A stretch of DNA of 64,000 nt from an uncultured Verrucomicrobiae bacterium. Lineage in GTDB: Bacteria > Verrucomicrobiota > Verrucomicrobiia > Limisphaerales > UBA11358. How positions within the stretch are numbered: position 1 is the first letter of the stretch; each line of letters begins with the position of its first letter. Location of the stretch: positions 160,375 through 224,374 of the forward strand of contig CAWDKS010000008.1 of NCBI GenBank assembly GCA_963802965.1, given 5' to 3'. The notes under the pieces were generated by a model. The model was not told the DNA's origin and searched no databases. It saw nothing but the letters and a program-made list of their open reading frames with translations. A program made the position numbers and the translations under genes. Of the stretch, positions 13,960-64,000 are shown in pieces.

Positions 13960-13963
13960 TCAT

Positions 13964-18581: not shown

Positions 18582-18587
18582 GTTCGT

Positions 18588-32584: not shown

Positions 32585-32595
32585 AAAATTAAAAG

Positions 32596-34352: not shown

Positions 34353-34375
34353 CACCTCTGGGTGAAAGGCATAAA

Positions 34376-34924: not shown

Positions 34925-34964
34925 CCCCCAACCCTCAACCATGAACCCTCAACCGACTTCGTCT

Positions 34965-45685: not shown

Positions 45686-45812
45686 GGCATTGAACCCATG
45701 ATTGAGAAAAACCGCGCAGTGTGACGAGCAAAAAGGGTCACCACAGGCCCAGGCCGTGATTTTTCCCGTCCCTGGGCTTGAGCTTTTTCCAGCTTTCGCT
45801 TATTCGTCGCAC

Positions 45813-46109
45813 ATGCTTGTGGTCCACGTTCATGTTCATGTCAAACCGGAGTGCGTCGAGGCGTTCACGGAGGCGACGCGCGTCAACGCCAGCCTGAGCT
45901 TGCTGGAGCTGGGTATCCTGCGCTTTGACGTCCTGCAACAGCAGGACGACCCGACGCGGTTCGTGCTGGTGGAGGTTTATCGCGACGCCGAGGCCGCCGC
46001 CGCGCACAAGGAAACGCAGCATTACCCGGTCTGGCGCGAGGCGGTGGCACCGATGATGGCCGAACCGCGTTTGAGCGTGAAGTTCAACCAGGTTTCTCTG
46101 GAGGACTAA
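45813..46109 (+). CDS. Antibiotic-biosynthesis-monooxygenase (ABM) family protein
   Basis: MLVVHVHVHVKPECVEAF...FVLVEVYRDAEAAAAHKETQHY is a ferredoxin-like ABM pattern. ATG 45813 chosen. Confidence 0.75.
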   Translation: MLVVHVHVHVKPECVEAFTEATRVNASLSLLELGILRFDVLQQQDDPTRFVLVEVYRDAEAAAAHKETQHYPVWREAVAPMMAEPRLSVKFNQVSLED

Positions 46110-46203
46110 GAGTGGCGAACGGTGGGACGAGGCTGCTGACGAGCCGCTTCGTCCCAAAAAAAGAGCGGCTCGCGAGGACGCCCGCCCCACCATTTGATTG
46201 GAT

Positions 46204-47358
46204 ATGCACTTTGAATTTGCAACGGCGGCGAAAATTATTTTCGGCGCGGGCACGCTGCGCGAGGCGGGCGTCATGGCCAGGGAATCTGGCCAACGCGCGC
46301 TGGTCGTGACGGGTCGCGACGCCAAACGCGCCGGACCATTGCTGAAAATTCTTCGCGCCGCCGGCGTGAACGCGGCAACCTTTTCCGTGACCGGCGAGCC
46401 GGAGCTTTCCACGATTGAGCGCGGCACGGCGCTGGCGAAAAAGGAAGATTGCGAACTGGTCATCGGCTTTGGCGGTGGCAGCGCGATTGACGCAGGCAAG
46501 GCCATCGCCGCCATGCTGACAAACGATGGCGCGCTGACGGACTACGTCGAAATCATCGGGCGCGGCAAGGCGCTGAAGAAACCCTCCGCGCCGTTCATTG
46601 CCATTCCGACGACCGCAGGCACCGGTTCGGAAGTCACGCGCAACGCGGTGTTGTCGTCGCCGGAGCACAAACTGAAGGTCAGCCTGCGCAGCCCGTTGAT
46701 GCTCGCGAAAGTGGCGTTGATTGATCCCGGGCTCACTTGCGATCTGCCGCCCGCGCTTACCGCCAGCACCGGCCTCGACGCGCTGACGCAACTCATCGAG
46801 CCGTTCGTCTGCTCGCGCGCGAACCCGATGACGGATGGTTTGTGCATGGAAGGCATCCGCCGCGCGGCGTGGTCACTGCGTGTGGCGATTGCCGATGGCA
46901 AAAACAAACCGGCGCGCGAGGACATGGCGGTGGCGAGTTTGTTCGGCGGATTGGCGCTGGCCAACGCGGGTCTGGGCGCCGTCCACGGATTTGCGGGGCC
47001 AATCGGCGGCGGTTTTCCCGCACCGCACGGCGCGATTTGCGCGGCGTTGTTGCCACACGTGATGAGCGCGAACCTCCAGGCGCTCCGGCAACGCGCGCCC
47101 GGCGGTGAAGCGTTGCGGCGCTACGACAAAGTGGGACGATGGTTGACCGGCAACGCGCAGGCGACGGCGGATGATGGCGTGGCCTGGGTCCGCAAACTTG
47201 CCGGCGACGCGCGGATTCCGCGGCTGGGCGCCTACGGCATCCGCAACGAACACGTTGCCGGGCTGGTGGAGAAAGCCGCTCACGCCAGCAGCATGAAGGC
47301 AAATCCGGTTGCGCTCACGCCGGAGGAATTGGCTGACACACTGCGGCAGGTGTTGTGA
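46204..47358 (+). CDS. Iron-containing (group III) alcohol dehydrogenase
   Basis: GFGGGSAIDAGKAIA, IPTTAGTGSEVT and the His cluster GAVHGFAGPIGG...HGAICAALLPHV. Confidence 0.88.
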   Translation: MHFEFATAAKIIFGAGTLREAGVMARESGQRALVVTGRDAKRAGPLLKILRAAGVNAATFSVTGEPELSTIERGTALAKKEDCELVIGFGGGSAIDAGKAIAAMLTNDGALTDYVEIIGRGKALKKPSAPFIAIPTTAGTGSEVTRNAVLSSPEHKLKVSLRSPLMLAKVALIDPGLTCDLPPALTASTGLDALTQLIEPFVCSRANPMTDGLCMEGIRRAAWSLRVAIADGKNKPAREDMAVASLFGGLALANAGLGAVHGFAGPIGGGFPAPHGAICAALLPHVMSANLQALRQRAPGGEALRRYDKVGRWLTGNAQATADDGVAWVRKLAGDARIPRLGAYGIRNEHVAGLVEKAAHASSMKANPVALTPEELADTLRQVL

Positions 47359-47367
47359 TTTGAAAAA

Positions 47368-47835
47368 GTGGATGCGATTTGGAAAACGGACGCGGTGATT
47401 GCGCAGACGGCCTGTCTGGCGCGCAGCTTGAAACATTGGACCGGACACGAATTGATGCCCGGTGTGGCCGCTCCTCCGGCGGAGCTGGCGCGGGCGGTGT
47501 TCGAGGCGCCGTTTGTCATTGTTTCGCATGGCACGGAGGCCGATCCGGTTTTGAATTACGGCAATCGCGCGGCCCTCACGCTCTGGGAAATGCCGTGGGC
47601 GGAACTGACCCGCACGCCGTCGCGGCTCACCGCCGGGGCGCCCAGCCGCGAGGAACGGGCGCGGTTGCTGGAAACCGTGACGCGGCGCGGGTTCATTGAC
47701 GATTATTCCGGCGTGCGCATCTCGAAAAGCGGCCGGCGCTTTCGCATCAGCCGTGCGACCGTTTGGAATCTGCTGACGGAGGACGGCCGGCCTTGCGGTC
47801 AGGCGGCGATGTTTGATCGCTGGGAATTTCTTTGA
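47368..47835 (+). CDS. MEKHLA-domain protein
   Basis: PFVIVSHGTEADPVLNYGNRAALTLWEM...PSRLTA...ERARLLE...GFIDDYSGVRISKSGRRFRI..ATVWNL...GQAAMF matches the MEKHLA pattern as I recall it. GTG start. Confidence 0.75.
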   Translation: MDAIWKTDAVIAQTACLARSLKHWTGHELMPGVAAPPAELARAVFEAPFVIVSHGTEADPVLNYGNRAALTLWEMPWAELTRTPSRLTAGAPSREERARLLETVTRRGFIDDYSGVRISKSGRRFRISRATVWNLLTEDGRPCGQAAMFDRWEFL

Positions 47836-47872
47836 GCTTTGGTGACGGAGCTTTAAGCTGACTGCGAATATC

Positions 47873-49390
47873 GTGAGCGACGCCGATTCCAACCTGGCCA
47901 CCGGAAACCCCGGGACGCGCGAACGCACCATCGTCGGATTATTATGCCTGCTGGCCGCGGTTCACGTTTTCATTTTTTCCGCCGCTTTTCCTTTTTTCAA
48001 CAACGTGGACGAATCCGCCCACTTTGACCTGGTCCTGAAATATGCGCAGGGCCACATCCCGCGCCAATTGGAGCCGGTGTCAACGGAAACCGCGCGTTAC
48101 ATCGCGGTCTACGACGCGCTCGAAATCTACCTCTGGCCTTCAAACAATTGTCCGACGGAACAAACCCCGCCGCTGTGGACCCAGCCGATGGAGAAGGCCG
48201 CGCCACTTTTAATGTCCAGACAAAGAGGGTGGGAAAAGGTAATCAATCACGAAGCCTGGCAACCGCCGCTTTACTACGCGCTGGCCGCTTTGTGGTGGCA
48301 TGGGGGGCGGTGGCTCGGTTTGGATGGCGGCAACCTGTTGATTTGGCTTCGGTGCCTGGACATCCCGGTGGTCATGGCGCTCGTTTGGCTCGGCTATTTA
48401 ACGGCCCGCGTCCTCTTCCCGGAAAATTTATTTTTGCGCATCGGCGTTCCGGCGCTGCTGGCGGCCATGCCGCAAACCGCTTTTTATTCAATTTCAAACG
48501 ATGTCTTGTCGCCGCTTTGCTTCGGCGTGTCGTTTATTTTGCTGACGCGCTGGCTGCAGGCGGACATGCCCGGCGTCCGGTTGGGAATCTTTGTGGGTCT
48601 GGCGCTGGCGGCCACTGATTTGGCCAAAATCAGCAACCTGCCGCTGCTGGCGGTGTCAGCGGGGGCCGTGTTGTTCAAGTCGTGGCGGCTGGCCTGGGCC
48701 GGAAAATTGCGCGCGGCGCTTCCGATGCTGGCCACCTTGTTTTTTTGCGCCGCCTTGCCCATGGCGGCATGGGCCGTGTGGTGCAAATATAACTTCGGCG
48801 ATTTCACCGGCGCGGGGGCGACCGCACATTTTTTCGGCTTGGAGCGCAAACCGTTCAGTGAATGGTGGCGTCACCCCATCTTCACCCCGCCAGGTCTGTG
48901 GACGTTTGTGTCCGGGCTGACGGCGACTTTCTGGCGGGGGGAAATTTTGTGGCATAGGGTGCCGCTTGCCCTGCCGACGGTTGACTGGTTTTACATCATT
49001 TCGTCCATCGGCCTCGTCATCGCGGCCCTGGTTGCCCTCCTGCCGCGCCGCCAGCAGGCAAGCGGGCGGCAGCGGCAGGCGCTCACGCTGGGCTTTTTGA
49101 ATGTGGCCGCGGCGGTGGCGTTTCTAGGTTTCCTGTCCGTCATTTACGATTTCCACGATAATTTCAATCCGTCACGCGAGCATCCGTATTTCACGCTGGG
49201 CCGGTTGATGCTCGGTGCGCTGGTTCCCTTTTTGCTGCTTTATCTTTACGGCCTTGACCGCGTTCTGAACCAGTTGAGCCTCCGGACGAAATTTCTGGCG
49301 CTCGCCCTCCTGATTCTGTTCATGCTGGTTTCCGAAATCACCGCCGACTGGCCGGTCTTCTTCAGCCGGTACAACTGGTTCCACATGTAA
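47873..49390 (+). CDS. Polytopic membrane protein, glycosyltransferase-39/DUF2142-like (paralog 1)
   Basis: 505 aa with about 11 TM segments. VDESAHFDL in the first loop and QPPLYYALAALWW. GTG start. Confidence 0.65.
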   Translation: MSDADSNLATGNPGTRERTIVGLLCLLAAVHVFIFSAAFPFFNNVDESAHFDLVLKYAQGHIPRQLEPVSTETARYIAVYDALEIYLWPSNNCPTEQTPPLWTQPMEKAAPLLMSRQRGWEKVINHEAWQPPLYYALAALWWHGGRWLGLDGGNLLIWLRCLDIPVVMALVWLGYLTARVLFPENLFLRIGVPALLAAMPQTAFYSISNDVLSPLCFGVSFILLTRWLQADMPGVRLGIFVGLALAATDLAKISNLPLLAVSAGAVLFKSWRLAWAGKLRAALPMLATLFFCAALPMAAWAVWCKYNFGDFTGAGATAHFFGLERKPFSEWWRHPIFTPPGLWTFVSGLTATFWRGEILWHRVPLALPTVDWFYIISSIGLVIAALVALLPRRQQASGRQRQALTLGFLNVAAAVAFLGFLSVIYDFHDNFNPSREHPYFTLGRLMLGALVPFLLLYLYGLDRVLNQLSLRTKFLALALLILFMLVSEITADWPVFFSRYNWFHM

Positions 49391-49449
49391 TTTGGCTCGA
49401 AGCCGAACTTGTGCTTTGACTGGGGAGTTTTAAGCTGGCGGCGAATATT

Positions 49450-50967
49450 TTGAGCAACGCCGATTCCAACCCGTCCGCCGGAATCTCCGGGACGCGCGAG
49501 CGCGCCGTCGTCTGGCTGTTGTGCCTGCTGGCGACGGTCCATGTTTTTATTTTTTCCGCCGCCTTTCCCTTTTTCAACAGCACGGACGAACAAATCCATT
49601 TCGATCTGGCGGTGAAATGGTCGCAAGGACACGTGCTGCGCGCCCTGGAGCCGGTGTCCGACGAGGCGGTGCGTTACATCGTGCTCTACGGTTCGCCGGA
49701 GTATGTGGGCATCCCGACCAACGCCCCTGACGGGCAGTTTGCCCCGCCGCCATGGAAGCAGCCGCTGGAAAAAGTCCGCCCGGCCCTCATCGCCAAAACC
49801 AAGGTCTGGCGGACGGTGACGAACTACGAAGCCTCGCAGCCGCCGCTCTATTACACGCTGGCGGGTTTGTGGTGGCGCGTGGGAAAGGCATTTGGATTTC
49901 ACGACGGCCTTTTGCTCTATTGGCTCCGCTTCCTGAATGTGTTTTTCATCGCGGCGCTCGTGTGGCTGGGCTATGCGGCCGCGCGGATGGTTTTTCCGGA
50001 AAACCTGTTTTTGCGGCTCGGCGTGCCGGCGCTGCTCGCGTTCATGCCGCAGACGGCGTTTTACGCGATCCAAAATGACGTGCTCTCGCCGCTGTGTTTC
50101 GGCGCGGCGTTCATTTTGCTGGTGCGCTGGCTGGAATCCGAACGGCCGGGTGCGCGCCTGGGCATGTTCACCGGGCTGGCGCTGGCGGCGACGTTCCTGG
50201 CCAAAATCACCAACGTCCCGTTGCTGGCCGTCTCGGCCCTGGCCGTGCTGTTCAAAATGTGGCGGCTGTTCCGGGCTGAAAAATTGCGCGCGGCAAAGCC
50301 GTCCATTTTTTGGTTGGTGATTTGCGCGGGACTGCCGATGGCGCTCTGGCTCGCGTGGTGCAAATATAACTTCGGCGATTTCACCGGCTCGGAGGCGAAA
50401 ATCCGGTTTCTGGGCTGGACGCACAAACCGTTCGCCGAATGGTGGCCGCATCCGATTTTCACGCCGCACGGTTTTTGGGTGTTTCTGTCCGGCAATCTGG
50501 CGACGCTGTGGCAGGGCGAGATGTTGTGGCACCGCCAGCCGCTCGCCCTCCATGGCGTGGATTCGGTTTACGCGGTTCTGTCCGCCGGACTGATCGCGTT
50601 GGCGCTGGCCGCCCTTTTCCGGCGTCCCGCCGTCACGACCACTCCGCAATGGCGGGTGCTGTGGTTCGCCTTCGGCTGTTTCACCGCGGCCCTCGCGTTC
50701 TTCGGCTGGCTCTCCATCATTTACGATTTTCAGGACTGCTTTTATCCGTCGCGCGCACACCCGTATTTCACCTCCGGTCGCCTGCTGCTAGGCGCGCTGA
50801 TTCCGTTCCTGCTGCTCTTCGTTTTTGGCCTCGACCGCGCGTTGAGCCGTTTCGGCAACCCGGCAAAATTCTTCGTGCTGGCTGGAATCATCCTGTTCAT
50901 GTTGATTTCCGAAGTCACGATTGACTGGCCGGTTTTCCAGAATCCCTACAACTGGTTTCACATGTGA
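49450..50967 (+). CDS. Polytopic membrane protein, glycosyltransferase-39/DUF2142-like (paralog 2)
   Basis: 505 aa, collinear with paralog 1 (TDEQIHFDL, QPPLYYTLAGLWW; both end NWFHM*). TTG start. Confidence 0.65.
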   Translation: MSNADSNPSAGISGTRERAVVWLLCLLATVHVFIFSAAFPFFNSTDEQIHFDLAVKWSQGHVLRALEPVSDEAVRYIVLYGSPEYVGIPTNAPDGQFAPPPWKQPLEKVRPALIAKTKVWRTVTNYEASQPPLYYTLAGLWWRVGKAFGFHDGLLLYWLRFLNVFFIAALVWLGYAAARMVFPENLFLRLGVPALLAFMPQTAFYAIQNDVLSPLCFGAAFILLVRWLESERPGARLGMFTGLALAATFLAKITNVPLLAVSALAVLFKMWRLFRAEKLRAAKPSIFWLVICAGLPMALWLAWCKYNFGDFTGSEAKIRFLGWTHKPFAEWWPHPIFTPHGFWVFLSGNLATLWQGEMLWHRQPLALHGVDSVYAVLSAGLIALALAALFRRPAVTTTPQWRVLWFAFGCFTAALAFFGWLSIIYDFQDCFYPSRAHPYFTSGRLLLGALIPFLLLFVFGLDRALSRFGNPAKFFVLAGIILFMLISEVTIDWPVFQNPYNWFHM

Positions 50968-50970
50968 AGC

Positions 50971-51052
50971 CGGTGGGGCGAGACTCCGTCGAGCCGTTGG
51001 AGTTCAAGCTTCAGCTTGTTCTCCCTCCAACAGGCTGAAGCCTGAACTCCAA
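50971..51052. repeat. Family G 26-nt box fused to a family B palindrome
   Basis: ggtggggcgagactccgtcgagccgt (50971-50996), then gttggagttcaagcttcagc ... gctgaagcctgaactccaac (50995-51052). Possible terminator-like hairpin after the membrane gene. Confidence 0.85.
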
Positions 51053-51119
51053 CATGGCCACGCCGAATTCATTTCCGCGTGCAAACGTGGGCGGTTTCTG
51101 ATTTACTCCGCCGACTCTG

Positions 51120-52664
<1,545 letters not shown>

Positions 52665-52835
52665 GCTGTGGGTAGCACAGGCCTCGGGCCTGTCGTTTCC
52701 GGCGTCGCGCCGGAAACCTTCGCAATTCACAATTCCCAACGTGCGAACCATCATGCATCTGCTACACTGTCCGACGAAATTCGGCGGGACGCCGAATTTA
52801 ACCCGCGAGACGCGGGTGCCACCGAATTTTTTTTC

Positions 52836-54776
52836 ATGTTAACCGTTGCCGGACTCAGCAAAGCCTTTGGCGGTCGTCAGCTTTTTGACGACGTGTCGCT
52901 CACGCTCCTGTCCGGCGAGCGCGTCGGCCTCGTCGGGCCGAACGGCGCGGGCAAATCCACACTGCTCAAAATCATCCTCGGCCAGGAATCGCCGGACGCC
53001 GGCGAGGTCACGTTCATCCGCGGCACGCGGTTCGGCTACCTGCCGCAGGAAAGCGAACCCGCCGGCAACGAAGCCGTCCTCGACATCGCCGTGCCGCACG
53101 ACCACGAGCACGACGGCCAGTTCGTCGCCCGGGCGAAACAGATTCTCGCCAGCCTCGGTTTCAAGCAGACGGACTTCACGCGTCCGGCGCGCGAATTGAG
53201 CGGCGGCTGGGTGATGCGCGCGCACTTGGCGCGGTTGCTGGTGCAGGAACCGGACGTGCTGATGCTCGATGAGCCAACCAATCATCTCGATCTTGAAACA
53301 CTGCTTTGGTTCCAGGAGTATCTGCGGAATTATCCCGGTGCCATCCTGCTCATTTCGCACGACCGCGAATTTCTCAACCGCCTTTGCACGCACGTCGCCG
53401 AACTCCGCTCGGCGCGCGTGCTGCGTTACACCGGCAACTACGACGAATACCTCGAACAACGCGCCGCCGCGGAAGTGACGCTGGTTGCCACGGCCAAGGC
53501 GCAGCAGCGCGAGATTGACCGGATGCAATTGTTCGTGGACCGGTTCCGCGCCAAGAACACCAAGGCCGCGCAGGCGCAGAGCAAGATGAAACAGATTGAG
53601 CGGCTCAAGGAGGACATGGTCCAGACGCCCGACGGGCCGGGTCCGACGGTGGGATTCCGTTTCCCGCAACCGCAACGCAGCGGCCATCGCGTCATCACAT
53701 TGAAGCATGTGAAGTTTGGCTACCCGGTGGAGCGCCGGGCACCGTCCCGGCTCGACGATGAACAGAAACACGCCGAGGCGGTGCTCGGCGCTCCGGTTGC
53801 AGACACCAAGCTCCTTTACGAAAACCTGAATTTCGAGGCCGAGCGCGGACAGCGCATCGTGCTGGTCGGACCGAATGGGGCGGGCAAATCCACCCTGCTG
53901 AAGCTGCTGGCTGACGTGCTGCAACCCGTGTCGGGCGAACGCCGGCTCGGGCACAATGCGAAGTCCGGCTACTTCGCGCAGCATCGCGCGGCCATGCTCA
54001 ATCCCAACCATACCGTGTTGCAGGAGGCGCTCGAAACGCCGCAACGAGTCACGGAACAGTTCGTTCGCACCGTGCTCGGCAGCTTTCTGTTCCGGGGCGA
54101 CGACGTGTTCAAGGCGGTGAATGTGCTGAGCGGCGGCGAGAAAAGCCGGCTCGCGCTGGTGAAACTGCTGCTCGACCCGCCGAACCTGTTGTTGATGGAC
54201 GAGCCGACGACGCATCTCGACCTCGCGAGCGTGGACGCGCTCATCGAGGCGTTGCAGCCCTACGAAGGCACGTTGATTTTCATCAGCCACGACGTGCATT
54301 TCATCCGCGTGCTGGCGAACCACGTCGTGCGCGTTGAAAACGGCCGGCTCCGGCATTTCACCGGCGGCTACCAGTATTACCTCGACAAGACCTCGCAATC
54401 CGCCCGCGCGGCGCTGACGTCGTCTGGTAGGGACGCGCTGCCGCGCGTCCAGGCTGACCGGCAGGTCAGCCCCACCATTGACCGCAAGGGACAAAAACGC
54501 ATTGAAGCCGAGCAACGGCAGGCGCGTTCGCGGAAGAAACAGGAAATCCAGAAACGCCTCGCCGCGCGCGAAAAGGAAATCGCGGAACTCGAAACGAAGG
54601 AAAAGGAATTAACGGCGGAACTGGAGAAACCGGAGACCTACACGACCGGCGGGCGGGCGACGCAGATCAATCGCGAGCTGATGCACGTCCATGAACGTCT
54701 GGCGGAGGCGAACACGGAATGGGAAAAGGCGGGGACGGAACTGGCGCGGTTCGAGGCGGAAGCCGCCGCGACGTGA
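52836..54776 (+). CDS. ABC-F family ATPase (two ABC domains, no TM) with a repeat-derived in-frame insert
   Basis: Two Walker A motifs ([12 protein letters not shown] twice), two signatures (LSGGW, LSGGEK), an inter-domain linker and a C-terminal coiled coil. ATG 52836 chosen. Confidence 0.92.
53729..53794. repeat. Family C palindromic element inside the ABC-F CDS
   Basis: ggagcgccgggcaccgtcccggctcgacg ... cgccgaggcggtgctcggcgctcc. The left arm matches the reverse complement of the right arm of the recA-upstream copy. Confidence 0.85.
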
Positions 54777-54978
54777 TTTTCCCGGGAGGGTCGCCGTGTC
54801 GGCGACCCAAAATCTCGAAAAAATGGGACGGCGACACGCCGTCCCTCCCAAATCACAACCACGACTTCAACCGTTCACCAGGCGGCGGTTCCAGAATGTT
54901 CGCCCGAGACCCTGAAAATTTTTGAGGGAATTTTCGCAGGTTGGTGTATAATATGCGTCGTTATACTCGATATTGATT

Positions 54979-55305
54979 ATGAAGAAATTGAAAATACTTG
55001 CGGCCATTGCGGCGGCTGTTCCATTCCTCGCCTTGCCGCTCGCCGGTCTGGCGGACGGCACAAATTCGGTGGCTGCCTCCAAGCCCGTGCCGTATCCGCT
55101 CGACACGTGCATTGTGTCCGGCGAGAAATTCGGCGGCGACATGGGGCCGCCCGTCGTGTTCATCTATCAGGACAAGGCAAAGGGCATCAACCAGGAGATC
55201 AAATTTTGCTGTCCGATGTGCAAGCCGAAATTCCTCAAGGACCCGGACAAATACATGAAAATCATCCACGACGCCGAGGCCAGGGCCAAGGACGCCAAAA
55301 ATTGA
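54979..55305 (+). CDS. Small secreted protein with YHS/TRASH-like Cys motif
   Basis: Signal peptide (MKKLKILAAIAAAVPFLALPLAG), then C-x(n)-FCCPMCKPKF..DP.KY, resembling a metal-binding TRASH/YHS module. Confidence 0.55.
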   Translation: MKKLKILAAIAAAVPFLALPLAGLADGTNSVAASKPVPYPLDTCIVSGEKFGGDMGPPVVFIYQDKAKGINQEIKFCCPMCKPKFLKDPDKYMKIIHDAEARAKDAKN

Positions 55306-55362
55306 TGGGCGAAAGCCAAAAAACGTGCGGCATGATTTGCCCATCGGAGTGAAATTCAAATC

Positions 55363-55698
55363 GTGAAAACGGCACTGTCCATCTTTTGCAGCCTGGCGTT
55401 CGCCTGGGCGCAGATTGCCGTCTGCGAGCAAACGCCGCAGGCGCCCGCCGCAAAAGTGGATTGCGGTTGCGGCGGCAAAATGGCCTGTTGTGCCGCGATA
55501 CCCGTCCCGGCTCCGCCGCCGCTCACGGCCAATCCGGCCCCCGCCGGAAACCAAAACCAGCTTTCCGTTCCTCCGCAAAACATTGTGGCGTGGGTTTTGC
55601 CTGACGCCGCATCGCCCGGGTTTTCCCCGGTTGCTTCAACATTGTTCCCCGCGCCCGGTGCCGCGCTCTACGCGCGGGACTGCGCCCGGCTGATCTGA
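55363..55698 (+). CDS. Small secreted Cys-rich protein
   Basis: Signal peptide, then the DCGCGGKMACCA cluster and a Pro/Ala-rich tail. GTG start. I recognise no family. Confidence 0.45.
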   Translation: MKTALSIFCSLAFAWAQIAVCEQTPQAPAAKVDCGCGGKMACCAAIPVPAPPPLTANPAPAGNQNQLSVPPQNIVAWVLPDAASPGFSPVASTLFPAPGAALYARDCARLI

Positions 55699-55850
55699 TT
55701 TTTCCGCTTCCCCGCCCGGAGTGTGCCTTGAGCCGGCGCGCTTCGGACACGCTCCTTTGCTCCACGGAATTTTTGTGCCCGTGATTTGCCCCAAATTTTT
55801 CCGCCGCGCACAAACGGCGGCGATTGAAACAAAAACGAAAGAGAAATTTT

Positions 55851-56129
55851 ATGAAAACGAAACTGATTTTAATCGCTGTCCTAGCCGCCATGCTGGGCGG
55901 AGCCGCCGGCTGGCTGGCGCCGCATCATCCGGTGGGGACTGTCACCGCGTCCTCGGACCGCAAAATTCTTTACTACGCCTGCCCGATGCATCCGAACATC
56001 AAATACGACAAGCCCGGTGACTGCCCGATTTGCGGCATGAAGCTCCAGCCAGTTTATGCGGATGAAACCAAAACGAACGCGCCCGCCGCACCGCCGGCAG
56101 GTTGCTGTTCGGTCGGCACGACCCCTTGA
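55851..56129 (+). CDS. Small membrane-anchored heavy-metal-binding-domain protein
   Basis: TM anchor, then ILYYACPMHPNIKYDKPGDCPICGMKL (the HMBD found at CusB N-termini) and a C-terminal GCCS. Confidence 0.7.
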   Translation: MKTKLILIAVLAAMLGGAAGWLAPHHPVGTVTASSDRKILYYACPMHPNIKYDKPGDCPICGMKLQPVYADETKTNAPAAPPAGCCSVGTTP

Positions 56130-56142
56130 AGCGGGCAATTTT

Positions 56143-57021
56143 ATGAAACCGAAAACCCTTTTGCTCGTGCTGTTCGTCGCCGTCGCGAGTGCGACAACGG
56201 CGTGGTTCGCCGCGCGGCGCGAGCCTGCCCCAACGACCACCACTCACACCGCCGCCACGGGCCGAAGGATTCTTTATTACCAAAGTCCAATGCACCCGTG
56301 GATCAAGTCTGACAAGCCGGGGAAATGCCCAATTTGCGGCATGAACCTGGTGCCGGTTTATGAAAGCGGGGAAAGCACCAACACCGGCTTCGGCCTCAAG
56401 CTCAATGCCGACAGCGTGAGCGTCGCCAACGTCCAGACCGCGACGGTCGAACGCCGCCTGCTCGTCCGCACTTTGCGCGTGGCTGGCAGCATCTCGGCGA
56501 ACTCCTGGACGGCGGCCTGGTTCGAGTTCACCGCCTATTCCCGCGACCTCGTCTGGCTGAAAATCGGCCAAACCATTGAAGTCACCGTGCCGTCCGCACC
56601 GGGAAAAGTTTATTCGGCGCAAATCAAATTGCACGGTGTGCGGCCCGTCGCGGACACGGATTTTGACAGCGCGTCGGACAGCACCAAAATTCGCGCGGAA
56701 ATTTCCGATCCGCCGGTCGAGGCCGGTAATTTGGGCGGGGAAAAACTGTTCACCGGGCTTTACGCCGAGGGCCGCGTGCTGGTCAGCCTGCCGGAAACCC
56801 TCGCCGTGCCGCGCAACGCGGTGCTTCAGCCCGGCCAGCAGCCGGTCGTTTATGTGGACGAAGGGAATGGTTATTACGAGCAGCGCAAGGTGAAGCTGGG
56901 CCGCGTTGGCGATGAATTTGTCGAGGTCCTCGACGGTTTGAAGGAAGGCGACAAGATCGTCACCTCCGGCGGGCTGTTGATTGACGCCGAGGCACAGATT
57001 TCCCAAAGCGCCCAAAATTAA
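56143..57021 (+). CDS. cusB: CusB-like RND adaptor with N-terminal heavy-metal-binding domain
   Basis: [27 protein letters not shown] followed by MFP beta-barrel motifs ([46 protein letters not shown]). Confidence 0.8.
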
Positions 57022-57025
57022 TGTC

Positions 57026-60000
57026 ATGATCAACCGCATCATAGAATGGTCGTTGCGCAACCGCTTCCTGGTCTTTTGCGGTGTGGCGCTGCTCATCGGC
57101 TTCGGCGTCCGCGCCGTTTATCGCACGCCGGTGGATGCGATCCCCGACTTGAGCGAAAATCAGGTCGTCGTTTTCGCCGACTGGCCGGGGCGCAGCCCGC
57201 AGGAAGTCGAGGATCAGGTCACCTATCCGCTCTCGGTAAATTTGCAGGGGCTTGCCGGCGTGAAAACCGTCCGCGCCAACTCGATGTTCGGCTTCTCGCT
57301 CGTCACCATCATTTTCGACGACAAGATTGACAATTATTTCGCGCGGTCGCGCGTGCTCGAACGGCTGAATTATCTCGGTGACGTTCTGCCCGCCGGCGTC
57401 GAACCGAAGCTCGGCCCGGACGCGACCGGCCTTGGCTGGGTTTACCAGTATTACCTCGACGTGGACCCGAAGCTTGCGCCGGATGGCGGTTACGACCTCG
57501 GGCGCTTGCGCGCGATTCAGGACTGGTTTGTGCGTTATCAACTCAATGCCGTTCCCGGCGTGGCCGAGGTCGCGAGCATCGGCGGTTTCGTGCGGCAATA
57601 CCAGATTGAGGTCTCGTCGCTGCGGATGCGCGCGATGAATGTGACACTGCAAATGGTCATGGACGCCGTGAAGCAAAGCAATTTGAACGTCGGCGGCAAG
57701 GTCATCGAGGAAAACGGAATGGAATTCGTCGTGCGCGGCGTCGGCCTCGTCAATTCCAACGCGGATTTGGAAAACATCGTCCTCACGCAGAGCAGCGGCA
57801 CGCCGGTTTATCTCAAGGACGTGGCGACCGTGCAGGTCGGCGGCGATTTCCGGCGCGGCGCGCTGGACATTGACGGGCACGAAGCCGTCGGCGGCATCGT
57901 TGTCATGCGCACCGGCGAAAACGCGATGCAGGTCATCCGCGACGTGAAGGCCAAGATCGCGCAAATCGCGCCGAGCCTGCCGCCGGGCGTCAGCATCAAA
58001 TCCTTTTACGACCGCAGCGAGCTGATTGACCGCACGCTCGATACGCTCAAACACGCGCTGACCGAGGAAGCCATCCTCGTCACGTTCGTCATCATCCTCT
58101 TTCTGTTCCATTTCCGCAGCATCCTCATCGTCACGCTGCCGCTGCCGCTTTCGATTCTCGTTTCGTTCATCCTGATGAACCAGTTCGGCATCACGTCGAA
58201 CATCATGTCGCTCTCCGGCATCGCCATCGCCATCGGCGTGCTGGTGGACGCGGGCATCGTCATGGCCGAAAACGCCATCCGGCATTGCGAACTGGCGGAG
58301 AACAAGAAAGGCGCGCGGCTGAACAAGACCGAGTCGTTGCAAGTCACGCTGGAGGCGGCGCAACAGGTCGGACGCCCGATTTTCTTCGCGATGGTCATCA
58401 TCATCCTCGCATTCGTGCCGGTGTTCGCGCTGACCGGCCAAGAGGGAAAACTGTTTCACCCCCTCGCGTTCACGAAGACCTTTGCAATGGCCGGCTCGAC
58501 GCTGCTGGCCATCACGCTCGTGCCGGCGTTGTGCGCGACGTTCATCCGTGGTCCGTTCCATGCCGAAGACGCCAATCCGTTGATGAAAATCCTGCTGGCG
58601 ATTTACAACCCGATCTTGGATTGGGCATTGCGCTTCCGCAAAACGGTACTCGGCATTGCGTTGATTTTGGTCACTGCCGCGCTGGTTCTGGCCTTTGGCG
58701 TTCCGTCGAGAAATTGTCTCTCAACTCTCAATCCTCAACCCTCAACTGGCAACGAAGCTGCCCCGCGGCATGGGCAGCGAATTCATGCCGACACTAAACG
58801 AAGGCAGTCTGCTTTTCATGCCGGTGCTGCTGCCCAGCACGTCGCTCACAGAAGTGAAACGCATCATGGCTTGGCAGGATCAGGTCATCAGTCAGACACC
58901 CGAAGTAGCAAGTGTCGGCGGAAAATTAGGCCGTTCCGAGACCGCCACCGACCCCGCGCCGATTGAGATGATTGAGACGACCATCATGCTCAAACCGGAA
59001 TCACAATGGCGTCCAGGCATGACCAAGGAAAAACTCATCGCCGAGCTGGAGGAAAAATTGTCGCAGATGCCTGGCTACGTGCCCGGATTTTTGCAGCCGA
59101 TTGAAAACCGCATTTTGATGATCAGCACCGGCATCCGCGCGCAGGTCGGCATCAAGATTCTCGGCGACAACTTGGACGCGCTCCAGCAAAAGGCGTTCGA
59201 GGTCGAGCGTGTCGTCCGGCAGATTCCCGGCGCGGTCGGCGTGGCCGCATCGCGCACGGAAGGCAAACTGTATCTCGACATCGAGGTGGACCGCGCGGCG
59301 ATGGCGCGTTACGGCCTGCGCGCGCAGGATGTCCTGGACCAGGTCGAAGGCGGCATCGGCGGCGACAATGTTTCCACGGCGATTGCCGGACGCGAACGCA
59401 TTCCCATCCAAGTCCGGCTGCAACGGAGCGAACGCGACGACATCGAGCGGCTCGGCGATCTGCTCGTGCCGACGCCGGCGGGAAAATATGTTCCGCTCGG
59501 TGAAGTGGCAAAAATCCGCCGCGAAATCGGGCCGAGCGAAATCAACAGCGAAAACGGGCGTTTGCGTGTGTTCGTGCAGGCGAACGTCGAGGGCCGCGAC
59601 CTCGGCGGCTTCGTGAAGGAAACGCAGGCGCGCCTCGCGAAGGAAATTTCCCTGCCGCCCGGCATGACGATTGAATGGAGCGGCCAATACGAAAACCAGA
59701 TCCGCGCGCAGCACACGTTGCGGCTCATCGTGCCGGCGGCGTTGTTCGTCATCTTCCTGCTGCTGTATGTCGTTTATCACAGCGCGAAGGAGGCGGCGCA
59801 CGTCATCCTCGCCGTGCCGTTCGCGCTGACCGGCGGCGTGTTCCTGCAATGGCTGCTCGGCTACAACTTCAGCGTGGCGGTCTGGGTCGGCTACATCGCG
59901 TTGTTTGGAACGGCGATTCAAACTGGCGTCGTGATGGTGGTTTATCTGGATGAAGCGGTTAAAAAGAAAATGGCCGAGCGCGGCAACTTATTTTCCCGCG

Positions 60001-60242
60001 AGGATTTGATTCAAGCGGTGAAGGACGGCGCCCGCTTGCGGCTGCGCCCGAAGGTGATGACCGTGGCGACCATCGTTGCGAGCCTGTTGCCGATTTTGTG
60101 GAGTCACCGCACCGGCGCGGAGGTGATGAAACCGCTGGCGACGCCGGTCATCGGCGGCATGTTGAGCAGCCTCGCTTGCATTTTGATTGTGACGCCGGTG
60201 ATTTTCGCGTGGTTGCGGGAGCGGGAAATGGAAAACCGTTGA
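57026..60242 (+). pseudogene. cusA: CusA/CzcA-type heavy-metal RND pump interrupted by a +1 frame change
   Basis: N-part (57026 to about 58699: [16 protein letters not shown]...AALVLAFG) and C-part (about 58755 to 60242: [23 protein letters not shown]...) are collinear with CusA as I recall it. They sit in different frames, separated by about 55 nt containing a heptamer array. Confidence 0.8.
58719..58746. repeat. 4 x YCTCAAY heptamer array at the cusA frame break
   Basis: tctcaac-tctcaat-cctcaac-cctcaac. A related CCCTCAA array lies at 34925-34952. Confidence 0.85.
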
Positions 60243-60410
60243 ACCGCGGATGACGCGGATGGACGCGGATTCCCTGAGCTGAAGGTGCTACGGAAATTAG
60301 CCCAGTGTTGGCGCAACGCGACTACGCCGGGTAATCGTCCCGCCAATTATTTCCACCCTGAAGGGGTGGCGGAGGCTTTTCTTCGCCACACAAATTGATA
60401 TTCTTTTCGC

Positions 60411-62634
60411 ATGGCAACGGCCCGCCATCCGAAAGCGACCTTTTTCGTCCAGCGACAATTATTCTCTGGTCTGAGCAGCTTTGCCGAATTGGAACAAAAG
60501 ATTGCCGCGCTGCCCGACGAACAATCTCGCGGGGCTGCGTTTGAAGTTTTTGCCGAAGCCTATCTCGCCACGCAACGGAAATACGACGCCGCCCAAGTCT
60601 GGCCGCACGGTTCTGTCCCGCTCGACATCCTCAAAAATCTCGGCCTCACGGTGCTGGACAAAGGCGTGGACGGCGTGCTGCAAACCTTACTCGGCCAGTT
60701 CAACGCCTATCAAGTCAAGTTCCGCACCGGACGCCCGTCGCTGACGTGGCGCGAACTCTCCACCTTCATCGGCCTAGCCGACAGCCAACACATTCACAGC
60801 CGCGTCCTGATTACCAACTGCGACGAGCTGCCCGCCGTCCTCAACGACCGCCAGGGTTTCTTCTGCATCCGTGGCTCGGACCTGGATCGTTTGGAACCCG
60901 GTGACTTCCGCGCGATTGAAGCATGGCTGGCCGACGCCGCTTTCGTCGCACCGAAAAAATCGCCGCAACCGCACCAGACCGAGGCGCTGGACGCGTTGCT
61001 TCCCGCGTTGCAAACGCATGACCGCGTTTCCGCAATCATGGCTTGCGGCACGGGCAAAACACTCGTCGCGCTTTGGGTTGCGGAGAAAGTAGCGCAGGCG
61101 TCCTCGCCTGCGGGTTCCAGCGGCGTCCCCGCCGCGAGAATCCTTGTCCTGCTCCCCTCGCTCGCGTTGCTGCGCCAGACTTTGCATGAATGGTTGCGGG
61201 AAACCCGTTTGCCAAGCCTCGCCTATCTCTGCGTCTGCTCCGACCCGACCGTGAAGGAAGGCATTGACGCGCTCACCACGCAACAATCTGACCTCGACTT
61301 TCAAGTCTCCACCGACGCCGCGAGTGTGCGGAGTTTTCTGGACGCGCCCTTTGCCGGCGTGAAAATGATTTTCTCCACCTACCAATGCCAGATGTCTGAC
61401 TGAAGGAGTTGACGTGCCGGCGGTTGACATGGTGGCGTTTCTCGCGCCGCGCCGGAGCGTGGTTGACATTGTTCAAGCGACTGGTCGCGCAATGCGCCGT
61501 TCGCCCGGCAAGCAGTTCGGCTATGTGCTGGTGCCGCTTTATGTGGAAAAGACGCGGGGAGAAACGGTGGAGCAAGCTGTCCTGCGGAGCAACTTCGATG
61601 AAATTTGGAAAGTTCTTCAGGCATTAAAAGAACAGGATGATTTGCTGGCGCAAATTGTAGATGAAATGCGAATCCAGCGCGGACAAACAGGCGGTTTTGA
61701 TGAAAGTCGTTTTCGTGAGCGCGTGGAAATGATAGGCCCGGAAATTTCGTTGGATAGTTTGCGGCGATCAATAACCGCAGCTTGTATTGACGCGGTTGGT
61801 GAAGGTTGGTTTGAGCGTTATGGACAGCTATTGGCTTATCAGCAAAAGCATCGGAATAGCGATATGCCTGCGCGCTGGCCGGAAAATCAGAAACTCGCAA
61901 CGTGGGTTGTGAACCAGCGCGTGCTAAAGCGGGATGGTGTATTGGAGGATGAGAAAATTACGTTGCTTGACCGGATTGGATTCAAGTGGTCACCGCATGA
62001 AAGCAAATGGCGGACATATTATCTGGCTCTGTTGAAATACCGGGAACGCTTCGGCAACTGCCGCGTGCCGCAAAACTGGAAAGAGAATGAAAAGCTGGCC
62101 CGATGGGTGAGCGCGCAACGGCTTGATTATGGTCGTGGTGATATTTCCCGCGAGCGCGTCGCGATGCTGGACAAGATTGGATTCGATTGGGAGAAATACT
62201 TTCGACAGTTGGTGGAGTTCAAGCAAGAGCATGGTCACACAAATGTGCCTCAACGTTCAGGCAAATACCGGGAACTAGGAACATGGGTGAGAAACCAAAG
62301 AGCTGCGAAACGGTATAAACGCCCGATTATGGCGGAACGTGCCAAGCGTTTGGATGAAATCGGATTTGTCTGGGTGCTTGTTGAGCCAATGGCTTGGGAG
62401 AAAATGTTCGCGGCGCTCGTTGAATACAAGAAGGTGCATAACCATTGCAACGTCCCGCAAAAAGCTGGCGAATATAAACGGCTAGGGAAATGGGTGAACA
62501 CTCAACGCACTCATTATTTGGGAACCCGCTTAGGCGGGAGCGCCGAAGACTTGGGAGATTTTTCGCCTATCGGCGCCTTTCAGGGCTATGCCCTTTCGTC
62601 GAAAAACGTCCCAAAACTTCGGCTAGCAGAATGA
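60411..62634 (+). pseudogene. PD-(D/E)xK nuclease-like / SF2 helicase / helicase-associated (HA) repeat gene with internal deletion
   Basis: N-terminus: nuclease-like (GAAFEVFAEAYL...DKGVDGV...YQVKF). Helicase motif I (ACGTGKT) through FSTYQ, then a direct jump (in another frame, at about 61383) to NARCLTEGVDVPAVDMVAF...QATGRAMRR (motifs V-VI). Motif II is missing. Four HA-type repeats follow (W..RY..L..Y...HG...VP). Confidence 0.8.
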
Positions 62635-62712
62635 GCGGGCAAGCCGACACGGGCACCGCGCCTTAACAGCGTGAATCCCGTGTCCGCTCGCACAATCCGT
62701 TCATACTGGTTT
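62621..62712. repeat. Structured ~85-nt direct repeat, copy 1
   Basis: gaatgagcgggcaagccgacacggg...gaatcccgtgtccgctcgca...ccgttcatactggtt. Internal complementarity GAGCGGG/CACGGG with CCCGTG/CCGCTC. Starts at the helicase stop codon. Confidence 0.75.
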
Positions 62713-62719
62713 ACACAGT

Positions 62720-62791
62720 TTAAGGACGTTTGCCATGTCCAAAAATGATTGCCAATACGATTATTAAAATAAGCACATTTTCGATGTTCAT
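62720..62791 (-). CDS. Candidate 23-aa hydrophobic peptide
   Basis: MNIENVLILIIVLAIIFGHGKRP*. AAGGAA lies 4 nt upstream of the ATG. AT-rich context. No family recognised, so this is speculative. Confidence 0.3.
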   Translation of the reverse strand: MNIENVLILIIVLAIIFGHGKRP

Positions 62792-63054
62792 TTCATTCCT
62801 TTTGCAACTATTTATACTCAAGAACCGGAAAAAAGGTCGGAAGTGGAAAAAATTAAACTTTTCGGGTTTTTTACGGGAAAAAGTGTAGAGGTTAAGCCGT
62901 AGCAACTTGACGCTAACGGCAGTATAACATAAACGTGCGATTCACGGCAAACAGCCAAAGACTTGTGAGCTTTCATCGCTTTTTCGGGAATCCCGCCTTA
63001 CCCCCTACATCCCTCCGGCAGGAGCCCTCCAAGCTTGAAACGTCGCAAGATTTT

Positions 63055-63143
63055 GGCTTGGAATGAGCGGGCGAGCCAGCACGGGATTGCTCTTGCTCGG
63101 AATCCCGTGCCCGCTCGCAGTGACCGCTCATACGGGTTAGGAG
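63055..63143. repeat. Structured ~85-nt direct repeat, copy 2
   Basis: gaatgagcgggcgagccagcacggg...gaatcccgtgcccgctcgca...ccgctcatacgggtt. Same orientation as copy 1. Confidence 0.75.
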
Positions 63144-63259
63144 GACGAGTTTCCACAGCCCGATTTTGGTCAGAAGGCGGCCATTCGGATATACTGTCCG
63201 CCAGAACTTCAGTTTTTTAACCCGTTCCGAACAACCTCAACCAAGAAAGGGACATCACA

Positions 63260-63745
63260 GTGGGCATAGGCCGGGACAAGGCCGTGACCCTCGTTGCAGC
63301 ATTCACGCTGGCAAGCAAGATCGCGGAGGAATTGCAACGCGAATCGCCCGTGCTCGACAACCCGGAAGCAATCGCAGGACTTCTGCGGGAGCAGAACCGC
63401 CTGAAACAGGTCGAGACGTTCCAGATATTGATGTTGAACACGCGACGACGCCTCATCCGCGTCGAGCAGGTGTCACAGGGCTTGCTGGATACGATTCTTG
63501 TGCATCCGCGCGAGGTATTCCAATCCGCCATCGCAGCCCGCGCGGCTGCCATCGTTTTGGTTCACAACCACCCGAGCGGCGACCCGACGCCGAGCGACGC
63601 GGACATAAAGGTCACGCGCGATCTCATCCGCGCCGGACAACTTCTGAAAATCGAAGTGTTGGATCACGTCATTCTCGGACGGGCGACCGTGGACAGGCCG
63701 AAGGATTTTTCATCGTTACGCGAGCTTGGGTATTTTTTCCAGTGA
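63260..63745 (+). CDS. radC: RadC-like JAB/MPN-domain protein, N-terminally truncated
   Basis: HNHPSGDPTPSDADIKVT (JAMM motif) and LLDHVIL-type C-terminus (VLDHVILG). The ORF begins within the HhH region (GIGRDKAVTLVAAF) at a GTG, with an in-frame stop at 63218. Confidence 0.75.
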   Translation: MGIGRDKAVTLVAAFTLASKIAEELQRESPVLDNPEAIAGLLREQNRLKQVETFQILMLNTRRRLIRVEQVSQGLLDTILVHPREVFQSAIAARAAAIVLVHNHPSGDPTPSDADIKVTRDLIRAGQLLKIEVLDHVILGRATVDRPKDFSSLRELGYFFQ

Positions 63746-63792
63746 CCCGCGACTAAGCGCACGAGGCGATTCCCGATAAAGGAATCGCTTTT

Positions 63793-64000
63793 TTAATTGT
63801 CAGAAGCACTGGCTTTTCGCTGGGCAATCTGCAAAGCAAGACTGGTCCCGCCGAGCCTCGACAGGCTTTCGACGATTTCTTCATACGTGTCGCCGATGAC
63901 CCACGGTTCGGCGATGAGAACCGCCTTCACATCCGTGGCATTGGCTTCCGCGACCACCTTGATCCATTCCGCAAATTTCGTTTCGTATGGAGTGCGCTCG
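63793..64000 (-). CDS. 3' end of an unidentified gene running off the window
   Basis: Open minus-strand frame from the window edge: ...ERTPYETKFAEWIKVVAEANATDVKAVLIAEPWVIGDTYEEIVESLSRLGGTSLALQIAQRKASASDN*. Not in the ORF track because it has no start. Confidence 0.35.
   Translation of the reverse strand, partial: ERTPYETKFAEWIKVVAEANATDVKAVLIAEPWVIGDTYEEIVESLSRLGGTSLALQIAQRKASASDN

What the first reader, a model, noticed from the sequence alone, without database searches (positions are those of the whole stretch)
58695..58760. cusA is split exactly at a heptamer array: possible slippage-controlled (phase-variable) copper pump or a fresh pseudogene
The N-terminal 558 codons end at ...AALVLAFG and the C-terminal part resumes at [17 protein letters not shown] in the +1 frame. 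In CusA as I recall it, these blocks are separated by only a few residues. Here they are separated by about 55 nt containing tctcaac-tctcaat-cctcaac-cctcaac. Four units are 28 nt (1 mod 3), whereas three units would be 21 nt (0 mod 3). Gain or loss of one unit would therefore restore a continuous ORF with a short in-frame insert, as seen in lysS, the ABC-F gene and the phosphatase-family gene. The upstream cusB and the three small metal-binding genes look intact.
Basis: partly seen in the sequence, partly recalled or inferred. Interest (0 to 1): 0.65.

Follow-up and report, generated by a model that had tools for sequence, protein, structure and literature searches.

The report
One-base frameshift in cusA, not slippage
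The copper/silver efflux pump gene cusA is split by one extra base (G at 58710) lying 9 nt before a heptamer-looking stretch that is ordinary, conserved coding sequence, so this is a young broken allele or a consensus error and not a repeat-controlled switch.

Summary
The split of cusA is real in this sequence. Codons 1-561 are in one frame and the rest, up to 60242, is in the +1 frame. The cause is not the heptamer stretch.

- **The stretch is native coding sequence.** 58719-58746 encodes [10 protein letters not shown]. This is part of a 20-residue loop found at constant length in all 119 close homologs and in relatives down to 66% identity.
- **An intact sister has the same units.** Sister locus L001 carries the same four units, in more regular form, and is uninterrupted.
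- **The lesion is one extra base.** Against L001, L002 and three metagenome contigs, the window has one extra base, G58710, in TCGA[G]AAATT.
- **An in-frame allele exists in the same population.** A 151-nt contig from the same soil study is identical to the window except that it lacks this G.
- **Removing the G restores the gene.** The result is a 1071-aa protein that aligns without gaps to P0001 at 95.7% identity.
- **No unit-number variation was seen anywhere.**
- **The lesion is very young or an artefact.** dN/dS (the ratio of protein-changing to silent substitutions) is 0.08, the same as among intact sisters.

No reads of the source assembly were available, so I cannot separate a real null allele (about 50%) from a consensus error (about 43%). 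Phase variation is about 3%. This is an ordinary finding of low interest.

The parts
57026..58708 (+). cusA N-terminal part in the original frame (codons 1-561, MINR...LAFGVPS). It covers TM1-TM7 and the first periplasmic domain.
   Evidence: Translation. tblastn of the L002 CusA covers aa 1-573 in frame 2 at 94.9%. Pfam ACR_tran matches profile positions 1-627. The best solved structure is E. coli CusA, E=4e-273.
58710..58710 (+). The extra G that shifts the frame: TCGA[G]AAATT. Without it the codons read TCG AAA ATT GTC, which is S-K-I-V.
   Evidence: DNA alignment with intact L001 and L002. The X2 contig covering 58599-58750 has 0 mismatches and one gap, reported as '58710 left out'. The X5 contig lacks 58710 and the X4 contig lacks one base at 58706. 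In-silico deletion gives a 1071-aa ORF that aligns without gaps at 95.7% to P0001.
58709..58966 (+). Out-of-frame tail of the N-terminal product as assembled ([22 protein letters not shown]...), ending at the stop at 58964-58966.
58700..58768 (+). Coding segment of the clade-specific 20-residue loop between TM7 and the GxGSEFMP motif. After removal of G58710 it reads [23 protein letters not shown].
   Evidence: The loop is present at constant length in 119 homologs. It is also present in loci from Verrucomicrobiota, Lentisphaerae, Planctomycetes and Chromatiaceae at 66-96% identity. It is absent in the Acidobacteriota type and in E. coli.
58719..58746 (+). Heptamer-like stretch tctcaac tctcaat cctcaac cctcaac. 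It is the codons TCT CAA CTC TCA ATC CTC AAC CCT CAA C(TG), encoding [10 protein letters not shown]. It is neither an insert nor the site of the lesion.
   Evidence: The codon-by-codon alignment shows the same positions in relatives that lack the periodicity, for example L010 with TCA CAG ATT TCA AAA TTT AAT CCG CAG CTT. Intact L001 has CTCTCAACTCTCAACTCTCAACCCTCAAC.
58710..60242 (+). cusA C-terminal part in the +1 frame (EIVSQLS...REREMENR, then the stop). It carries the second periplasmic domain, TM8-12 and the three methionines that align with the metal-binding triad of E. coli CusA.
   Evidence: Translation. tblastn covers aa 561-1070 in frame 3 at 95.7%. Pfam ACR_tran matches profile positions 548-1020. 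The alignment to 3t51 shows LLFMPV / APIEMIETT / NRILMISTGI opposite LLYMPS / APLEMVETT / NRIDMLSTGI.
56143..57021 (+). cusB-like membrane fusion protein with an N-terminal HMBD domain. It is intact.
   Evidence: tblastn against L002 cusB covers 1-292 at 89.4% with no gaps. Pfam hits are HMBD and HlyD_D23.
55851..56129 (+). Small HMBD metal-binding protein. It is intact.

Best explanation
cusA in this assembly is interrupted by a single inserted base, G at 58710 (TCGAAAATT became TCGAGAAATT). The insertion lies 9 nt upstream of a stretch that looks like four heptamers.

That stretch is simply the coding sequence of a conserved loop, [10 protein letters not shown], and plays no part in the lesion.

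Taken at face value, the insertion makes a very young, strain-specific null allele. Translation would give TM1-TM7 followed by an 86-residue nonsense tail, from codon 562 to the stop at 58964-58966. It would lose the second periplasmic domain, TM8-12 and the methionine triad, so the pump would be dead. An in-frame allele persists in the same soil population.

Shown:
- the position and nature of the lesion;
- that the array is not involved;
- that the in-frame allele exists;
- that there is no sign of decay.

Inferred:
- that the extra base exists in the organism and not only in the consensus;
- that the truncated product is non-functional.
For: - **Position of the lesion.** The DNA alignment with two intact sisters shows one extra base at 58707-58710 and identical register through the heptamer stretch.
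- **In-frame allele nearby.** The X2 contig, from the same study as X1, is identical over 58599-58750 except that G58710 is left out. X1 holds 71% of the words of 50500-60400.
- **More distant contigs agree.** Contigs from X4 and X5 also lack the base.
- **In-silico repair.** Removing the G gives a 1071-aa protein that aligns without gaps to P0001 (95.7%) and P0003 (95.2%), with the consensus loop length.
- **Assembly quality.** Over about 39.5 kb laid against same-study short-read contigs, this is the only indel: 0 indels and 3+3 substitutions in X1. The assembly is otherwise clean, which speaks for a real variant.
- **Sequence context.** The insertion is not in a long homopolymer.
- **Age of the lesion.** dN/dS of the window against its sisters is 0.077-0.086. 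The post-frameshift part gives 0.083-0.098, no higher than among intact sisters at 0.074-0.105. The lesion is therefore very recent.
- **Neighbouring decay.** The helicase gene immediately downstream looks truncated by an internal deletion, and X1 contigs match the surrounding region without indels. Real gene decay next to cusA is therefore plausible.
Against: - No sequencing run or contig carrying the extra G was found. X1 has no coverage over 58564-58973, and the sampled words that span the G are held by no indexed run.
- The only same-population sequence across the site is in frame.
- The window spans at least 64 kb, yet the matching short-read run has only about 5x depth. The assembly therefore probably comes from deeper, possibly long-read, data, where isolated 1-nt indels are the usual residual error (inference).
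- A related MAG, L048, also has a split cusA, at an A6 run.
- A complete lack of decay is what a consensus error would also show.
Confidence: 0.5

Rival explanations
1. Consensus or assembly error. The organism's cusA is intact (TCG AAA ATT GTC) and the extra G at 58710 is an artefact of base calling or polishing in the source assembly.
For: - The only near-identical environmental sequence across the site (X2, depth 2) lacks the G and is otherwise 151/151 identical.
- No indexed run holds the words that span the G.
- All 119 homolog proteins are in frame at this site, and so are all the fetched loci, including L048, whose split lies elsewhere.
- dN/dS shows no relaxation at all.
- Relatives in the public genome set are largely long-contig MAGs. 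One of them, L048, has a 1-nt frameshift in an A6 run of the same gene.
Against: - The assembly shows no other indel against same-study short-read contigs over about 39.5 kb.
- The inserted G is not a homopolymer extension, which is the commonest long-read error type.
- X2 comes from a different sample from X1 and differs from the window by a substitution elsewhere (49622), so it may simply be a sister strain.
Confidence: 0.43
2. One reading: a heptanucleotide-repeat contingency locus. Slipped-strand gain or loss of YCTCAAC units switches cusA on and off, as in neuO.
For: - Loss of one unit, or gain of two, would formally restore an ORF.
- The genome is unusually rich in true heptamer arrays.
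- 31-mers of this stretch are multi-copy in peat and soil metagenomes.
Against: - The lesion maps 9 nt outside the stretch.
- Intact L001 has the same four units.
- The loop length is fixed in 109 of 119 homologs. The 10 exceptions differ by 1 aa downstream of the stretch.
- No contig differs in unit number.
- There are only four imperfect units, with just one identical adjacent pair. neuO has 3-53 perfect units (PMC13001214).
- The 'ON' form made by unit loss would give ...[14 protein letters not shown]..., 2 aa short, a form that no homolog has.
Confidence: 0.03
3. The gene is expressed despite the shift. This could happen by programmed +1 ribosomal frameshifting at UCG-AGA-A, or by the two halves working as separate polypeptides.
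For: - AGA is a codon at which +1 shifts have been reported when its tRNA is scarce (my own knowledge).
- RND pumps are built from two homologous halves (established knowledge).
Against: - The frameshift is not conserved. Every relative, including a near-identical one, is in frame.
- There is no slippery motif, and no stop codon or Shine-Dalgarno-like stimulator was seen at the site (by inspection).
- The break falls after TM7, not between the halves.
- The C-terminal frame has no obvious independent start. The N frame runs on to 58966, so re-initiation is not expected.
Confidence: 0.02

Closest known systems
Ordinary frameshift pseudogene or null allele of an accessory metal-resistance gene (or an indel error in a MAG consensus)
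   Same: - A single-base insertion in an otherwise perfectly conserved gene.
- Intact alleles in the closest relatives.
- No accumulated decay.
   Different: Nothing distinctive. The only peculiarity is the chance neighbourhood of a heptamer-looking coding stretch.
E. coli CusA (CusCBA Cu(I)/Ag(I) efflux pump, HME-RND; PDB 3k07/3t51)
   Same: - The repaired protein aligns end to end, E=4e-273.
- The three methionines of the metal-binding site are aligned.
- The genetic context matches: a cusB-like membrane fusion protein and small metal-binding proteins.
   Different: - This clade carries an extra 20-residue loop between TM7 and the GxGSEFMP motif, which E. coli lacks.
- No cusC-like outer-membrane factor gene lies next to it, either in the window or in sister loci.
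- The gene is frameshifted here.
neuO heptanucleotide-repeat phase variation (E. coli K1 prophage CUS-3); also the heptanucleotide repeats at hmw1A/hmw2A of Haemophilus influenzae
   Same: The repeat unit has the same length (7 nt), so frame depends on copy number modulo 3. In neuO, full-length translation occurs only when the copy number is divisible by 3 (PMC13001214).
   Different: - neuO has 3-53 perfect units that vary between and within strains.
- Here there are four imperfect units, fixed in number in all relatives and encoding a conserved loop.
- The frame lesion lies outside them.

Membership tests
CusA / HME-RND heavy-metal efflux transporter | Full-length RND (ACR_tran) architecture with closest similarity to CusA rather than to multidrug RND pumps | tested here: met
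   Pfam ACR_tran matches both parts, profile positions 1-627 and 548-1020. PDB best hits are CusA at 4e-273, ZneA at 2e-167 and AcrB-type at about 1e-60. Homologs are named CusA/SilA or CusA/CzcA by their sources.
CusA / HME-RND heavy-metal efflux transporter | Three-methionine Cu(I)/Ag(I) binding cluster (M573, M623, M672 in E. coli numbering, from my own knowledge) | tested here: met
   In the alignment to 3t51, methionines stand opposite LLYMPS, APLEMVETT and NRIDMLSTGI. All three lie downstream of the frameshift.
CusA / HME-RND heavy-metal efflux transporter | An uninterrupted reading frame, that is, a functional gene | tested here: not met
   The frame changes at 58710. Whether this is true of the organism or only of the consensus was not testable.
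Simple-sequence-repeat contingency locus (phase variation by slipped-strand mispairing) | The frame-changing difference between ON and OFF alleles is a change in repeat-unit number | tested here: not met
   The in-frame (X2, L001, L002) and out-of-frame (window) alleles differ by G58710, not by units. L001 has the same four units.
Simple-sequence-repeat contingency locus (phase variation by slipped-strand mispairing) | Unit number is polymorphic among strains or reads | tested here: not met
   The loop segment is 39 aa in 109 of 119 homologs and 38 aa in 10, where the loss lies outside the stretch. The 82 loci and the contigs from X2, X4 and X5 show no unit-number change. Raw reads of the source genome were not available.
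Simple-sequence-repeat contingency locus (phase variation by slipped-strand mispairing) | A tract of many identical tandem units | tested here: not met
   There are four units with 82% matches and only one identical adjacent pair, CCTCAAC CCTCAAC. neuO has 3-53 perfect units.
Programmed ribosomal frameshift gene | The frameshift is conserved in orthologs and sits at a slippery or stall site | tested here: not met
   No ortholog is shifted at this site. No slippery heptamer or in-frame stop is present at 58700-58715.

The most novel reading that the evidence does not exclude
This lineage's genome carries many heptamer arrays of about 30 nt. One is a 96-nt inverted pair inserted in frame in lysS.

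The cusA loop may have been progressively 'heptamerised' at constant length, from about 2 periodic units in 78-88% relatives to 4 units in the nearest sub-clade. The cause would be a lineage-specific DNA-level process, such as template switching or conversion from dispersed arrays, and not drift.

The resulting tract could then offer a -7 slippage route that compensates the +1 insertion.
Probability: 0.05. Interest if true: 0.45.

Novelty: already known. Interest (0 to 1): 0.1.

Why it matters
It matters mainly as a correction. The apparent repeat-controlled copper pump is an ordinary one-base frameshift next to a coding stretch that only looks repetitive.

For annotation, cusA here should be flagged as frameshifted, either a possible pseudogene or a consensus error. 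It should not be listed as a contingency locus.

If the lesion is real, this strain has recently lost a Cu/Ag efflux pump that its closest relatives keep under purifying selection.

The dispersed heptamer arrays elsewhere in the window are the more interesting lead and deserve their own assessment.

Tried and rejected
1. **The 55 nt or the array is an insertion relative to the ancestral gene: rejected.** The loop is present at constant length from 66% to 96% identity, and the periodicity arises by point substitutions at homologous codons.
2. **Looking for the frameshift allele elsewhere: nothing found.**
   - The sampled words across the G are held by no indexed run.
   - Two pattern scans of JGI metagenome contigs, written to catch both alleles, found nothing. 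They did not even find the L001-type sequence, so that collection simply lacks these contigs.
3. **Identifying the source record through exact window proteins: not on record.** I tried cusB with two different starts, lysS and the HMBD protein. L048 looked like a candidate because its match is 3211 nt long, but it is only 87% identical to the window and is split at another site.
4. **Additional runs for the junction: not informative.**
   - X1, the best holder of this genome, has a coverage gap over 58564-58973.
   - X21 and X35 give no coverage of the junction. X22 and X27 have none there in the 44500-64000 lay.
   - X6-X8, X10 and X13 match only the array 31-mers and downstream sequence, and X9 matches nothing.
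5. **The search of 1.84 billion protein representatives: no help on this question.** It only confirmed that the family is huge, with 11,833 clusters at E<=1e-30, and added nothing on the loop beyond the 82 loci.
6. **Literature searches: no description found.** Searches for heptanucleotide arrays in Verrucomicrobia and for cyanobacterial STRR returned no account of the arrays seen here.
7. **Programmed frameshifting and a split functional pump: considered and rejected** (see the rival explanations).

Full report
**What is in the sequence**

The window has 58.6% G+C. Its relatives are soil and peat Verrucomicrobiota MAGs.

That frame then runs on as nonsense ([25 protein letters not shown]...) to a stop at 58964-58966. 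The recognisable C-terminal half (..[17 protein letters not shown].. to the stop at 60242) is in the +1 frame.

tblastn with an intact sister protein gives aa 1-573 in one frame and aa 561-1070 in the next. The four units tctcaac tctcaat cctcaac cctcaac are at 58719-58746. The raw observation is therefore correct.

**The heptamer stretch is native coding sequence, not an insert**

E. coli CusA does have only a few residues between TM7 and GGEFLP. The close relatives do not.

- All 119 homologs where the anchors could be found (85-96% identity) carry the loop LAFG[30 protein letters not shown].
- The anchored segment is 39 aa in 109 of them and 38 aa in 10. The single-residue loss lies after the stretch.
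- A scan of species-representative genomes gave 80 further loci (L003-L082), making 82 with L001 and L002.
- A loop of the same length, with other sequences, occurs in Verrucomicrobiota, Lentisphaerae, Planctomycetes and Chromatiaceae at 66-80% identity.
- The Acidobacteriota type (55-59% identity) and E. coli lack it.
- Codon-by-codon alignment shows that the periodic look arises by substitutions at homologous codons. L010 reads TCA CAG ATT TCA AAA TTT AAT CCG CAG CTT, and L001 reads TCT CAA CTC TCA ACT CTC AAC CCT CAA CTG.
- S-Q-L-S-T-L-N-P-Q-L happens to be what the three frames of CAACYCT spell.

**Where the frame is actually lost**

Aligned to two intact sister loci, the window reads CCGTCGAGAAATTGTCTCTCAAC. 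L001 encodes P0003 and L002 encodes P0001, and L002 shares gene order with the window. L001 reads CCATC-AAAAATTGTCTCTCAAC. The window therefore has one extra base, 9 nt before the stretch.

L001 has the same four units, in more regular form, and is uninterrupted.

In-silico edits gave the following:

| Edit | Result |
|---|---|
| Remove G58710 | 1071-aa ORF, loop [23 protein letters not shown], gap-free alignment at 95.7% to P0001 and 95.2% to P0003 |
| Remove one unit | ORF restored, but loop 2 aa short and reads [14 protein letters not shown], a form no homolog has |
| Add one unit | Frame not restored |
| Add two units | Frame restored |

**Evidence at the level of reads and strains**

- Run X1, a soil metagenome, holds 71% of the sampled words of 50500-60400, so it contains this population.
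- Over 44500-64000 and 1-20000, X1 contigs show no indel and three substitutions in each stretch. The assembly is clean.
- X1 has no coverage over 58564-58973.
- Run X2, from the same study, has a 151-nt contig covering 58599-58750. It is identical to the window except for '58710 left out'. That is the in-frame allele, with four units.
- More distant contigs in X4 and X5 also lack one base there.
- No indexed run holds the words that span the G.
- Two scans of JGI metagenome contigs found neither allele.
- Among the 82 loci, only L048 has a split cusA, at a different place, an A6 run near codon 425.

**How old is the lesion**

dN/dS of the repaired gene against L001, L002 and L003 is 0.077-0.086. 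For the post-frameshift part it is 0.083-0.098. Among the intact sisters it is 0.074-0.105. There is no sign of relaxed selection, so the lesion is either very recent or not real.

**Interpretation**

Two statements are well supported, at about 0.95 together:
1. The frame is lost through one inserted base at 58710.
2. The heptamer-like stretch is not involved and is not hypervariable.

What cannot be settled here is whether the G exists in the organism.

For a real allele:
- The consensus is otherwise free of indels against short-read contigs.
- The insertion is not a homopolymer extension.
- The helicase gene just downstream appears genuinely truncated. X1 contigs match that region without indels.

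For an error:
- The only same-population sequence across the site is in frame.
- Nothing supports the G.
- A contig of at least 64 kb from a population seen at about 5x in short reads suggests deeper, possibly long-read, data, where isolated indels are the typical residual error (inference).

My estimates are about 0.50 for a real young null allele, 0.43 for a consensus error, 0.03 for heptamer phase variation and 0.02 for programmed frameshifting or a functional split gene.

If the lesion is real, the product would be TM1-TM7 plus a nonsense tail. It would lack the second periplasmic domain, TM8-12 and the three methionines that align with the E. coli metal site. The pump would be inactive (inference).

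**Comparison with known systems**

There, a 5' AAGACTC tract of 3-53 copies slips, and translation is full length only when the copy number is divisible by three (PMC13001214).

None of the defining features of such a locus is met here. The ON/OFF difference is not a unit change, unit number is not polymorphic, and the tract has only four imperfect units.

The gene itself passes the sequence tests for CusA-type HME-RND pumps, apart from being frameshifted.

**Verdict**

This is an ordinary single-base frameshift, either a young pseudogene or a consensus error. It sits next to a coding stretch that looks repetitive by accident of the peptide and its codon choice. Interest is low.

The window's true heptamer arrays are a separate and more interesting matter. 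Period 7 is uniquely enriched, each array is about 30 nt, and one inverted pair forms a 96-nt in-frame insert in lysS.

Noticed in passing
window 11402-11420, 13857-13887, 13923-13959, 26813-26844, 27212-27242, 32558-32589, 34924-34954, 52005-52041, 52075-52097: True heptamer tandem arrays of about 30 nt each (mostly 4.3-4.6 units), with differing units such as AACATCC, ATTTCCG, CGTGAAG, AAATCGT and ACCCTCA. Period 7 is uniquely enriched: 6 strict arrays, against 0 for the other periods from 4 to 12 and 0 in shuffles. Some arrays lie just upstream of start codons (32558, 34924). Two (26813, 27212) lie inside the phosphodiesterase-family ORF 26018-27538(-). No description was found in the literature searches.
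   Followed up: partly
window 51998-52093 (lysS, 51120-52664): A 96-nt (32-codon) in-frame insert relative to the lysS of sister locus L002, which shares gene order with the window. It consists of an inverted pair of GATGTTG/CAACATC heptamer arrays around an A-rich loop, so it can form a hairpin. It resembles in-frame palindromic-element insertions such as the Rickettsia RPEs (that comparison is from my own knowledge). A similar inverted pair lies at 13857-13960, at the 5' end of the outer-membrane efflux protein ORF.
   Followed up: partly
window 58714-58747, as seen in runs X4-X8, X10, X13: The 31-mers of the (YCTCAAC)n stretch attract depths of roughly 10 to 1200x from many other loci with different flanks in peat and soil metagenomes. 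Arrays of this unit are therefore a dispersed multi-copy sequence in these communities.
   Followed up: no
L072 5793-6004; L015 1405-1491; L028 9289-9349; L022 5170-5201: Heptamer arrays also occur next to cusA homologs in other phyla, and some are long inverted pairs. Examples are Blastocatellia with (ATTTGTC)n/(TGACAAA)n directly upstream of the gene, and also Spartobacteria and Lentisphaerae.
   Followed up: no
window 60411-62634: The two ORFs downstream of cusA look like one Mrr-nuclease/helicase/HA-domain gene with an internal deletion and a frame change near 61385-61400. The first ORF ends ..FSTYQCQMSD*. The second begins inside ..CLTEGVDVPAVD..QATGRAMR. The middle of the helicase core is missing. 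X1 contigs lie over this region without indels. Sister loci have lpxD downstream of cusA instead.
   Followed up: partly
window 8167-13963 (- strand): A second, intact tripartite RND efflux operon: an outer-membrane factor (12476-13963), a membrane fusion protein (11466-12479) and an RND pump (8167-11253). The pump is 27% identical to the CusA of sister locus L002.
   Followed up: no
window 32596-34131, 34346-34924, 35350-36063: The carB-like ORF covers only the N-terminal half of the carbamoyl-phosphate synthase large chain. It is 511 aa and ends inside the oligomerisation domain. It is followed by an ORF6N-domain gene and a TIR_2-domain gene. This could be a naturally split carB or an interrupted one.
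   Followed up: no
window 5492-7676: A contig in run X22 joins 5492 to 7676, skipping 2183 nt. This is a presence/absence polymorphism that covers ORF 5721-7235(-) and part of 7242-7958(-).
   Followed up: no
L048 7262-7287: The cusA of a related MAG is split by a frameshift near codon 425, at GGCGGAAAAAACC (an A6 run). This may be an indel error of that assembly.
   Followed up: partly
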